From Eledone cirrhosa (taxonomy: Eukaryota): 64,000 nucleotides of DNA. Numbering within the stretch: position 1 is the first letter of the stretch; each line of letters opens with the position of its first letter. The translations under genes were made by a program, and so were the position numbers. The stretch lies in NCBI GenBank assembly GCA_964016885.1, contig OZ024740.1:228284001-228348000 (forward strand), read 5' to 3'. This document shows, one piece after another, positions 2,900 through 7,620 of this stretch. The notes under the pieces were generated by a model. The model saw only the letters and a program-made list of their open reading frames with translations. It had not been told where the DNA came from and ran no database searches.

Positions 2900-4152
2900 C
2901 ACTCTAGCACGATCACCACCACCACCACCACCACGGTCACAACCATCACCACCACCACTACCACCACTACCAACACTACCAACACCACCACCACCACCAC
3001 GGTCACAACCATCACCAACACCACTACCAACACCACCACTACCAATACCACCACCACCATCATGGTCACAACCACCACTACCACCACTACCAACACCACC
3101 ACTACCACCACTACCAACACCACCACCACCATGGTCACAACCATCACCACCACCACTACCAACACCACCACTACCACCATGGTCACAACCATCACCACCA
3201 CCACTACTAACACCACCACTACCAACACCACCACCACCACCATGGTCACAACCATCACCCCCACCTTACCAACACCACCACTACCAACACCACCACCACC
3301 ACCATGGTCACAACCATCACCACCAGCACTACCAACACCACCACTATCACCACTACCAACACCACCACCACCACCATGGTCACAACCACCACCACTACCA
3401 ACACCACCACTACCACCACTACCACCACTACCAACACCACCACCACCACCATGGTCACAACCATCACCACCACCACTACCAACACCACCACTACCACCAC
3501 CATCACCACTACCAACACCACCACCACCACCATGGTCACAACCATCACCACCACCACTACCAACACCACCACCACCACCATGGTCACAACCATCACCCCC
3601 ACCTTACCAACACCACCACTACCAACACCACCACCACCACCATGGTCACAACCATCACCACCAGCACTACCAACACCACCACTATCACCACTACCAACAC
3701 CACCACCACCACCATGGTCACAACCACCACCACTACCAACACCACCACTACCACCACTACCACCACTACCAACACCACCACTACCAACACCACCACCACC
3801 ACCATGGTCACAACCATCACCACCACCACTACCAACACCACCACTACCACCACCATCACCACTACCAACACCACCACCACCACCATGGTCACAACCATCA
3901 CCACTACCAACACCACCACTACCACCACTACCACCACTACCAACACCACCACTACCAACACCACCACCACCACCATGGTCACAACCATCACCACCACCAC
4001 TACCAACACCACCACTACCACCACCATCACCACTACCAACACCACCACCACCACCATGGTCACAACCATCACCACCACCACCAACACCACCACTACCAAC
4101 ACCACCACCACTACCACCACTACCAACACCACCACCACCACCACCACCACCA
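2900..4152. repeat. CAC/CAA-derived minisatellite (ccatggtcacaaccatcacc motif)
   Basis: Recurring catggtcacaacc marker among CCA/CTA triplets; several frames are open and swap peptide register. Confidence 0.92.
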
Positions 4153-4989: not shown

Positions 4990-6920
<1,931 letters not shown>

Positions 6921-6925
6921 GAATA

Positions 6926-6974
6926 GCTTCTACAGGACTAGAACTGTTTCATTCGTGAGAAATCATCAGGAAGC
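6926..6974 (-). ncRNA. Type I hammerhead ribozyme (mirror copy)
   Basis: Exact reverse complement of 6975-7023. Confidence 0.78.
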
Positions 6975-7023
6975 GCTTCCTGATGATTTCTCACGAATGA
7001 AACAGTTCTAGTCCTGTAGAAGC
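6975..7023 (+). ncRNA. Type I hammerhead ribozyme
   Basis: Stem I GCTTC/GAAGC; core CTGATGA at 6980-6986; stem II TTC-TCAC-GAA closed by a T.T mismatch; GAA; stem III ACAG-TTCTAGTC-CTGT; GUA cleavage triplet ending at 7018. Confidence 0.8.
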
Positions 7024-7244
7024 TATTCTATATTAAAACATTTATACTCTGCTATCTATTGAGTACCTTACTTACTGTGGTTACCCACGATTGAACTCGG
7101 AATAACTTATATATATATATATATATATATAGTAATAATAATAAAATTGAAGACTAAAATCCAAAGAGGGCTCGATAAGGAAAATATATATCAAATATAT
7201 AAGAACCGTAGAGCAAATATTTATTAAAATAACAGATTAAAGTT

Positions 7245-7302
<58 letters not shown>

Positions 7303-7330: not shown

Positions 7331-7620
7331 ATAATTGTTTCTACTTTTGGCACAAAGCCAGAAATTATTCAGTGCATTACTGGTACTTTATTTTATCGAC
7401 TCCGGAAGGAAGAAAAGCAAAGTTAACCTCGGCGGGATTTGAACTCAGACCGTAAAGGGACGTAACTACGCTGGAAAGCATGTCTGATCCTCTACCAATA
7501 CTGCCAATTCACCATATATAATTGTTTCTACTTTAGGCACAAGGCCAGCAAATACCCAGTGCATTACTGGTACTTTATTTTATCGACCCCATAAGGATGA
7601 AAGGCAAAGTCAACCTCGGC
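7331..7620 (-). mobile_element. Two tandem copies (one truncated) of SINE family A
   Basis: ataattgtttctact...tggtactttattttatcgac...gttaacctcggcgggatttgaactcag; B-box-like GAGTTCAAATCC on the minus strand; about ten related copies in the window. Confidence 0.88.

What the first reader, a model, noticed from the sequence alone, without database searches (positions are those of the whole stretch)
6916..7033. Perfect 118-bp spacerless palindrome made of two back-to-back hammerhead ribozymes
Seen: the arms are exact reverse complements about 6974/6975, and each holds a full type I hammerhead (CUGAUGA, GAAA, GUA site, 5-bp stem I, 4-bp stem III with a central CTAG in its loop). The symmetry axis lies at the 5' end of stem I. 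Established: PLE pseudo-LTRs carry short type I hammerheads, often acting as dimers, and show inverted ends. Inference: a transcript in either direction contains a ribozyme plus its perfect antisense, so it could switch between self-cleavage and a 59-bp dsRNA hairpin (an siRNA or ADAR substrate).
Basis: partly seen in the sequence, partly recalled or inferred. Interest (0 to 1): 0.75.

Follow-up and report, generated by a model that had tools for sequence, protein, structure and literature searches.

The report
Penelope stub centred on RNA start
This mirror-image DNA is one of thousands of short back-to-back stubs of an abundant Penelope-type jumping gene, likely made when two DNA copies ran off the start of the gene's RNA and were joined, so it is likely an inert insertion scar and not a ribozyme switch, although the stubs together give a testable clue to how these elements copy themselves.

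Summary
The 59+59 bp palindrome and the hammerhead motif are real, but the locus is ordinary. It is a 194-bp head-to-head stub (short arm plus long arm with a ~70-nt tail) of a young Penelope-like retroelement with Hydra-clade motifs, inserted in (TA)n. The genome holds 27,663 exact core copies, 3,487 head-to-head junctions at this point and 24 with this blunt join. The axis lies ~31 nt behind a TATA box of the parent element. In 100 consecutive copies, 68 5' ends fall there and none 6-19 nt upstream. 47 of 50 palindromes pair one long with one short arm, and either arm can be the complete one. Best reading: two cDNAs primed from both target strands ran off the capped RNA start and were joined. 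The proposed switch is not supported: the antisense arm is always transcribed first, the hairpin wins by ~90 kcal/mol, the promoter is missing, and no editing marks were seen. Inverted ends, tails and hammerheads are published Penelope traits. This scan reached the same reading before, in this and other genomes. No RNA data confirm the start site.

The parts
6900..6915 (.). (TA)n target, left flank; exact insertion edge and any target duplication cannot be read
   Evidence: sequence; most of the 50 junction loci also have (TA)n-type flanks
6916..6974 (-). Short arm: element unit positions 1 to ~59, inverted; inferred cDNA primed at the inner start site (family ends at ~59-65)
6926..6974 (-). 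Type I hammerhead motif of the short arm (predicted cut mirrored at 6931/6930)
   Evidence: activity untested
6974..6975 (.). Head-to-head junction, blunt G1|G1; inferred 5' end (transcription start) of the element's RNA, about 31 nt behind the TATA box of read-through copies
   Evidence: start site inferred, no RNA data
6975..7023 (+). Type I hammerhead motif of the long arm: stem I 5-6 bp, core, U-U at 10.1-11.1, stem II 3 bp with variable tetraloop, stem III 4 bp with CUAG loop; predicted cut after 7018
   Evidence: activity untested
6975..7109 (+). Long arm: element unit positions 1-135; inferred cDNA primed at the outer start site
7034..7109 (+). Penelope 'tail' (about 70 nt between the two preferred ends); in full elements it continues into the ORF
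7110..7129 (.). (TA)n target, right flank, shared with a fragment of a second hammerhead-bearing repeat family

Best explanation
The palindrome is a short head-to-head insertion of a Penelope-like retroelement's front end, likely built at this site from two cDNAs that were primed from the two cut strands of a (TA)n target and ran off the likely transcription start of the element's RNA. Shown: it is the element's pLTR unit, with one arm to position ~59 and one to 135, and the axis is a family-wide fixed point ~31 nt behind a TATA box and ~85 nt behind a CCAAT box that the stub itself lacks. Inferred: the RNA is capped at the base of hammerhead stem I; the element's protein nicks both strands and starts reverse transcription at two internal sites (the two ends of the tail), one per strand, likely on one RNA or on RNAs of one source copy; both cDNAs stop at the RNA's 5' end after 60 and 135 nt; their 3' ends are joined with 0-3 nt of microhomology or small templated inserts, here bluntly. 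The product has no promoter and no ORF, and any read-through transcript is predicted to fold into the long hairpin that masks the ribozyme, so it is likely inert. The hammerhead is inherited from the parent element, where it is under selection.
For: Parent element: 16 of 18 fetched loci gave an intact 758-759-codon frame with YRDD and GIY-YIG-type motifs, 95.9-99.7% identical, starting ~45 nt behind the same hammerhead unit; 8 of 8 copies followed downstream end in the same unit 2.5-3.9 kb after the ORF. Fixed point: 3,487 junctions with both cores within 16 nt, control 0; 24 blunt joins including this one. In the first 100 core matches on contig C1, 5' ends lie at -5..+9 in 68, at -19..-6 in 0, at -20 or beyond in 27 and at +10 or later in 5. 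Promoter: TATA-type box in 22 of 22 retained read-through copies (16 at -31, the rest at -33 to -38) and CCAAT at -85 to -92 in 18 of 22; TATA-type box in 8 of 12 and 9 of 10 older-subfamily copies. Two start sites, one per arm: 47 of 50 palindromes are long/short, 0 long/long, 3 short/short (p=4e-11 against a free 50:50 choice), while read-through copies end long 12 and short 12. Two independent run-offs: among 46 clear long/short loci the complete 5' end is on the short arm only in 16, the long arm only in 12, both in 14, neither in 4; a single fold-back from the long cDNA cannot give the 16. One source: arms agree at subfamily-diagnostic columns in 44/46, 46/47, 44/47, 45/46 and 46/47 loci (0.32-0.54 expected if independent); arm divergence is 4.3% within loci and 13.3% between loci. 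In vitro, a lizard PLE nicks and extends both strands and starts at two internal sites that bound the tail (PMC11167929, parts 1-2 read).
Against: No RNA run holds the sequence, so the start site and cap are not observed. The 100-copy sample is from one 22.6-Mb stretch; both arms of a palindrome count separately, 8 of the 68 are one repeated context, and one of the 27 is a false extension into a TA run. The 50 junction loci were chosen by a pattern that forces intact cores, and two of them are a local duplicate. Untemplated C opposite a cap could not be told from microhomology. The young subfamily's upstream also reads like a 3' splice site, and in D. virilis an intron ends at this very position (PMC4209133). 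ORF-bearing copies behave differently: of 28 that reach position 1, 25 continue into the promoter, 3 end within about 7 nt upstream, and none has the head-to-head join; the simple linear-RNA model does not explain this without a second template type. In vitro, both strands used the same start sites without preference, unlike the strict long/short pairing here. Later gene conversion between arms could inflate arm agreement. A second family tested gave only 1 exact symmetric junction.
Confidence: 0.7

Rival explanations
1. Same twin priming, but the cDNAs stop at stem I for another reason: a strong pause at a structure or bound protein, or a 5' end made by processing at a 3' splice site, and not the transcription start.
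For: An intron ends at the 5' end of helix I in D. virilis Penelope. The young subfamily and a second family have a pyrimidine tract and AG here. 27 of 100 copies do read through.
Against: None of the 50 junctions shows a shared upstream exon or leader sequence; most complete ends include G1 and some A0. The TATA distance is kept across subfamilies whose last 10 upstream bases differ. 25 of 28 ORF-bearing copies pass the point.
Confidence: 0.14
2. Single-molecule fold-back: one cDNA, or an antisense RNA as proposed in PMC3846280, self-primes at this point and the second arm is copied from the first.
For: It explains long/short pairing and arm identity; the commonest joins leave a 3-4 nt loop (about 20 of 50); it is the published proposal for head-to-head palindromes in rotifer PLEs (passages).
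Against: In 16 of 46 loci only the short arm is complete, and in 14 both are; a fold-back cannot supply bases that the first strand lacks. Long copies show the long end on either the direct or the inverted side (3 clear cases).
Confidence: 0.11
3. The palindrome is a selected functional RNA that toggles between ribozyme cleavage and a dsRNA hairpin.
For: Perfect arms, intact core, and a predicted -20 kcal/mol ribozyme dimer for the isolated arm. An earlier AI note reports edited Penelope hairpins in this genome (e1-8671701, not checked at its locus).
Against: The antisense arm always comes first; ribozyme pairs have probability <1e-22; there is no promoter. Perfect arms are common (21 of 50 loci have no arm mismatch over positions 17-55). 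No polarised A-to-G pattern in 50 loci.
Confidence: 0.03
4. The stub is a self-propagating fold-back mini-element (MITE- or retrozyme-like) copied as a whole palindrome.
For: Thousands of similar units.
Against: Junction sequences differ from locus to locus, only 24 share this join, and arm variants track the parent subfamilies.
Confidence: 0.02

Closest known systems
Insertion architecture of endonuclease-positive Penelope-like elements (PMC8557442, passages and section 11; PMC3846280, passages)
   Same: Inverted 5'-truncated copy abutting the 5' end, one-sided tail, head-to-head palindromic junctions, (TA)n targets, TATA/Inr-like motifs in the pLTR.
   Different: The tail is ~70 nt rather than 30-40; the commonest product is a 190-200 bp stub with a fixed axis; the published explanation is self-priming on an antisense template, which the junction symmetry here does not favour.
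Hydra clade of C-terminal EN+ PLEs (PMC8557442 section 11)
   Same: DKT, CxCX5C linker, CxxC and CxH motifs, hammerhead, (TA)n insertion.
   Different: RWR instead of RWK; the element is longer than 3 kb because of a 2.5-3.9 kb microsatellite-rich 3' region; no tree was built.
PAc (Poseidon) in vitro system (PMC11167929, parts 1-2 of 4)
   Same: Both strands primed, two internal start sites bounding the tail, uncleaved RNA as template, hammerhead at the pLTR-ORF boundary.
   Different: That paper mentions no strand preference for start sites and, in the parts read, does not explain inverted junctions or map the RNA's 5' end.
PLE minimal/type I hammerheads (PMC4209133, parts 1-2 of 4)
   Same: Type I, short stem I, palindromic loop III, predicted dimer.
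   Different: U-U at 10.1-11.1 in 287 of 297 arms where G-C is described as highly conserved; 3-bp stem II; 4-bp stem III.
LINE-1 twin priming and retroviral strong-stop DNA (recalled, no call)
   Same: Two primers from one target break; run-off at a capped 5' end.
   Different: In L1 the two cDNAs cover different parts of the RNA; here both cover the same first 60 nt.

Membership tests
EN+ Penelope-like element (parent family) | Single ORF with RT followed by GIY-YIG endonuclease | tested here: met
   758-759-codon frames with YRDD and IVYKC..YIG. Pfam support is weak: GIY-YIG E=0.18 and no RT family for L120; homolog P0074 passes GIY-YIG at E=1e-5; no meaningful PDB match.
EN+ Penelope-like element (parent family) | pLTRs / partial tandem around the ORF | tested here: met
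   Same unit before the ORF and 2.5-3.9 kb after it in 8 of 8 copies followed
EN+ Penelope-like element (parent family) | Inverted 5'-truncated copy and one-sided tail | tested here: met
   the tail is about 70 nt
EN+ Penelope-like element (parent family) | Target-site duplication | tested here: inconclusive
   (TA)n flanks hide it
EN+ Penelope-like element (parent family) | RT groups with PLEs/telomerases in a tree | not tested
   No named reference sequences were held; 1,406 unnamed homologs at E<=1e-20
Hydra clade | DKG motif changed to DKT | tested here: met
   15 of 16 ORFs
Hydra clade | CxCX5C linker before the endonuclease | tested here: met
   15 of 16
Hydra clade | CxxC and CxH motifs late in the endonuclease | tested here: met
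   16 of 16
Hydra clade | RWK motif | tested here: inconclusive
   RWR in 16 of 16, a conservative variant
Hydra clade | Generally under 3 kb | tested here: not met
   ORF 2.3 kb plus 2.5-3.9 kb 3' region; a tendency in the paper, not a strict criterion
Hydra clade | Phylogenetic placement; absence of CCHH | not tested
   Supplements of PMC8557442 were not read; assignment is by motifs only
Type I hammerhead ribozyme | Core CUGANGA, GAAA, UH with three stems | tested here: met
   core positions 91-99% conserved in 297 arms (arms were collected by similarity to this core, so partly by construction)
Type I hammerhead ribozyme | Covariation of stems | tested here: met
   Stem I: C-G/A-U/U-G at 2-48 and A-U/G-C at 0-50; score 0.145 vs 0.068 shuffled, 0/500 (60 of 142 distinct arms, pre-filtered for stem I pairing; few independent events; stems II and III show no double changes)
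Type I hammerhead ribozyme | Purine-pyrimidine pair at 10.1-11.1 | tested here: not met
   U-U in 287 of 297 arms; no Rfam hammerhead hit
Type I hammerhead ribozyme | Self-cleavage | not testable with these tools
   Indirect only: 84 strand matches for junctions near the cut site, about 30 compatible with an end at it by eye, under 1% of the stem I class and confounded by microhomology
Non-LTR retrozyme | Tandem head-to-tail hammerhead units | tested here: not met
   Single head-to-head pair; definition from bioRxiv 10.64898/2026.07.22.740005, part 1
MITE / fold-back DNA element | Fixed unit with symmetric terminal repeats copied whole | tested here: not met
   Asymmetric arms and variable junctions
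microRNA precursor | Rfam family at gathering score | tested here: not met
   Best MIR444 40 bits vs 110: generic hairpin match

The most novel reading that the evidence does not exclude
Penelope-like elements use two template pools. The linear capped transcript, primed on both target strands near its 5' end, yields paired strong-stop cDNAs (these stubs, about two thirds of all core copies). Long promoter-bearing partial tandems come from a template with no end at that point, most simply a hammerhead-cut and ligated circle. The stubs would thus map the cap site, fix the template as sense RNA and show that each strand of a protein dimer takes a different start site; the contrast of 68 of 100 stops among all copies with at most 3 of 28 among ORF-bearing copies would be genomic evidence for the long-proposed circular intermediate.
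Probability: 0.3. Interest if true: 0.65.

Novelty: new member of a known kind. Interest (0 to 1): 0.38.

Why it matters
The single locus matters little: it is one of thousands and likely inert. The population matters more. How PLEs make inverted ends and partial tandems is open (PMC8557442 discussion passage; PMC11167929), and the published idea is antisense self-priming (PMC3846280). The stubs give sharp predictions for an existing in vitro system: RNA start at stem I, one start site per strand, junction made from two run-off ends. At least 3,487 hairpin-forming inserts are also a potential source of dsRNA wherever host transcripts read through them.

Tried and rejected
Rfam: no hammerhead hit, only sub-threshold miRNA hairpins. 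No RNA holder listed; contigs only, so no start, strand or level. Pattern had a wrong gap length and caught only 4 long-loop variants; not used. The 733 read-through count misses the young subfamily, so it is not used as a ratio. One search returned nothing (no coordinates in headers) and was redone. Cleavage-site junction class: small and ambiguous. Generalisation to the neighbouring second family: 1 exact symmetric junction; about a third of 30 copies end near stem I by eye, inconclusive. Cap-derived untemplated C: not separable from microhomology. Editing footprint: 0 of 50 loci polarised. Two-RNA palindromes: 5 of 50 loci differ at two or more variable columns, none cleanly a different subfamily. 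Pfam and PDB give no RT match for the ORF. Lunse et al. 2017, which may describe the U-U variant, is not held. No paper supplements were read; those of PMC8557442 bear on the clade and hammerhead variant. Paper searches listed no PLE-focused paper containing 'twin priming' or 'strong stop'; the library lacks most subscription journals.

Full report
Observation. The palindrome is exact, 6916-7033, with arms of 59 bp, and is the only complex perfect palindrome among 801 centres in the window. Each arm carries a type I hammerhead motif with the predicted cut after A7018. Positions 10.1-11.1 are U-U and stem II has 3 bp; Rfam finds no hammerhead. The right arm continues as a tail to 7109, and both ends lie in (TA)n. 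Below, unit position n is window 6974+n.

It is a repeat. A search of the own genome (3.0 Gb) with 6975-7110 gave 1,783 candidates, 40 scored, and 16 of these had an inverted partner abutting the same point. A 27-nt core motif occurs 27,663 times. Two cores head to head within 16 nt occur at 3,487 places, control 0, and the blunt join seen here occurs 24 times. Short-read contigs from two runs of one sample cross the axis with a few differences, so the class is not an assembly fold-back. The organism was not determined; its microsatellite-rich make-up recalls octopus genomes (recalled, untested).

Parent element. In one locus the tail runs on into a decayed ORF. A protein search with its start gave 8,025 candidates, 150 scored. 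Of 18 fetched loci, 16 held intact 758-759-codon frames, 95.9-99.7% identical, with RT and GIY-YIG-type motifs, and 8 of 8 followed downstream end in the same hammerhead unit 2.5-3.9 kb later. The motifs DKT (15/16), CxCX5C (15/16), CxxC and CxH (16/16) match the Hydra clade description, with RWR for RWK; no tree was built. Pfam and PDB support is weak; 1,406 unnamed homologs exist.

The axis is a fixed 5' end. For the first 100 core matches on contig C1, 5' ends lay at -5..+9 in 68, at -19..-6 in none, further upstream in 27 and further in in 5. These rows are not all independent: both arms count, 8 rows are one repeated context, and one upstream call is a false extension. Read-through copies carry a TATA-type box (22 of 22 retained; 16 at -31) and CCAAT near -85 (18 of 22); older subfamilies show the same. 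I infer that transcription starts at the base of stem I. No RNA run was listed, so this is not observed.

Two primings. In 50 junction loci (the first 50 of the 3,487; two are a local duplicate), 47 pair a long arm with a short one, none two long, 3 two short, while read-through copies end long or short equally (12 and 12). Among 46 clear cases the complete end is on the short arm only in 16, the long only in 12, both in 14 and neither in 4. Fold-back of the long cDNA cannot give a short arm holding bases that the long arm lacks. Arms agree at subfamily-diagnostic columns in 94-98% of loci against 32-54% expected, and 4 of 53 rare variants are shared; divergence is 4.3% within and 13.3% between loci. 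This points to one RNA or one source copy, though later conversion between arms is not excluded. A lizard PLE in vitro extends both strands from two internal sites bounding the tail and uses uncleaved RNA (PMC11167929, parts 1-2 of 4), which fits, although it showed no strand preference.

A result that the simple model does not cover. Among 37 distinct ORF-bearing copies, 28 reach position 1; 25 continue into the promoter, 3 end within about 7 nt upstream, none has the head-to-head join; the other 9 are truncated further in. Long copies therefore seem to come from a template with no end at this point: a tandem read-through RNA or the circle proposed in PMC4209133 (parts 1-2 of 4). This is the novel case.

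The ribozyme. Stem I covaries between subfamilies and loop II is hypervariable (60 of 142 distinct arms, pre-filtered for stem I pairing; few independent events), so the fold is kept in the parent element. U-U at 10.1-11.1 is fixed (287 of 297), against the G-C described as highly conserved; a second family shows the same U-U. The monomer fold is weak (-5 kcal/mol, 2% of the ensemble) and the dimer -20. Junctions near the cut site are rare and ambiguous. Activity is untested.

The proposed switch. In a head-to-head pair the antisense arm is transcribed first in either direction. Growing transcripts fold into the hairpin from the start of the ribozyme, and ribozyme pairs have probability below 1e-22 in the full palindrome. 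The stub has no promoter. Perfect arms are common (21 of 50), and no polarised A-to-G pattern was seen in 50 loci. A passive role as dsRNA in a host transcript remains possible and untested.

Known and new. Inverted 5'-truncated copies, tails and (TA)n targets (PMC8557442, passages and section 11), head-to-head junction palindromes with an antisense self-priming proposal and TATA/Inr motifs (PMC3846280, passages), pLTR promoters (PMC2377424 and PMC6765202, passages) and pLTR hammerheads are published. In eight searches I saw no PLE-focused paper with twin priming or strong-stop wording (in particular); the library is incomplete and no supplements were read. My reading was written down before I saw earlier AI notes, which state the same idea for this and other genomes; they are not independent support.

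Verdict. Real sequence, ordinary origin: a new member of a known kind. Interest 0.38, for the testable mechanism that the population offers and not for this copy.

Noticed in passing
window 7130-7245, minus strand: Fragment of a second hammerhead-bearing, (TA)n-inserting repeat family (156 exact core copies) sits tail to tail with the long arm; its 5' end falls exactly at that family's predicted cut site (n=1). Its core reads CAGAAGA (U4 to A) with the same U-U at 10.1-11.1.
   Followed up: partly
window about 15290-15334, minus strand: Another hammerhead-like motif with U-U at 10.1-11.1, a 2-bp stem II, a 5-bp stem I and almost no stem III; family not identified.
   Followed up: no
L120:2303-2450 (unit positions about 130-142): Just behind the tail end lies a branch-point-like and TTTTAG acceptor-like sequence, and two short upstream ATG frames lie within the hammerhead; a 5' UTR intron overlapping the tail is possible.
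   Followed up: no
L120:4620-7001 and L167-L174: The element carries a 2.5-3.9 kb 3' region rich in microsatellites whose length varies between 99%-identical copies, so it spreads microsatellites and its own targets.
   Followed up: partly
L021:2445-2496, L124:5382-5433: A subfamily variant extends the self-complementary part of loop III from 4 to 6 nt, in line with selection for dimer pairing.
   Followed up: no
L137, L141, L142, L143, L149, L157, L176, L203: One short stub (positions 7-59) is embedded in another repeat and has been copied with it at least 8 times in 22 Mb; a similar context appears in run X4 of another organism label.
   Followed up: no
window 7340-7620: Two similar ~130-nt repeats that recall a common mollusc SINE or LINE tail (recalled, no call).
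   Followed up: no
window 22000-38000 and 39400-64000: Very long strand-skewed simple-repeat or satellite arrays (GC skew above 0.9 over most of them).
   Followed up: no
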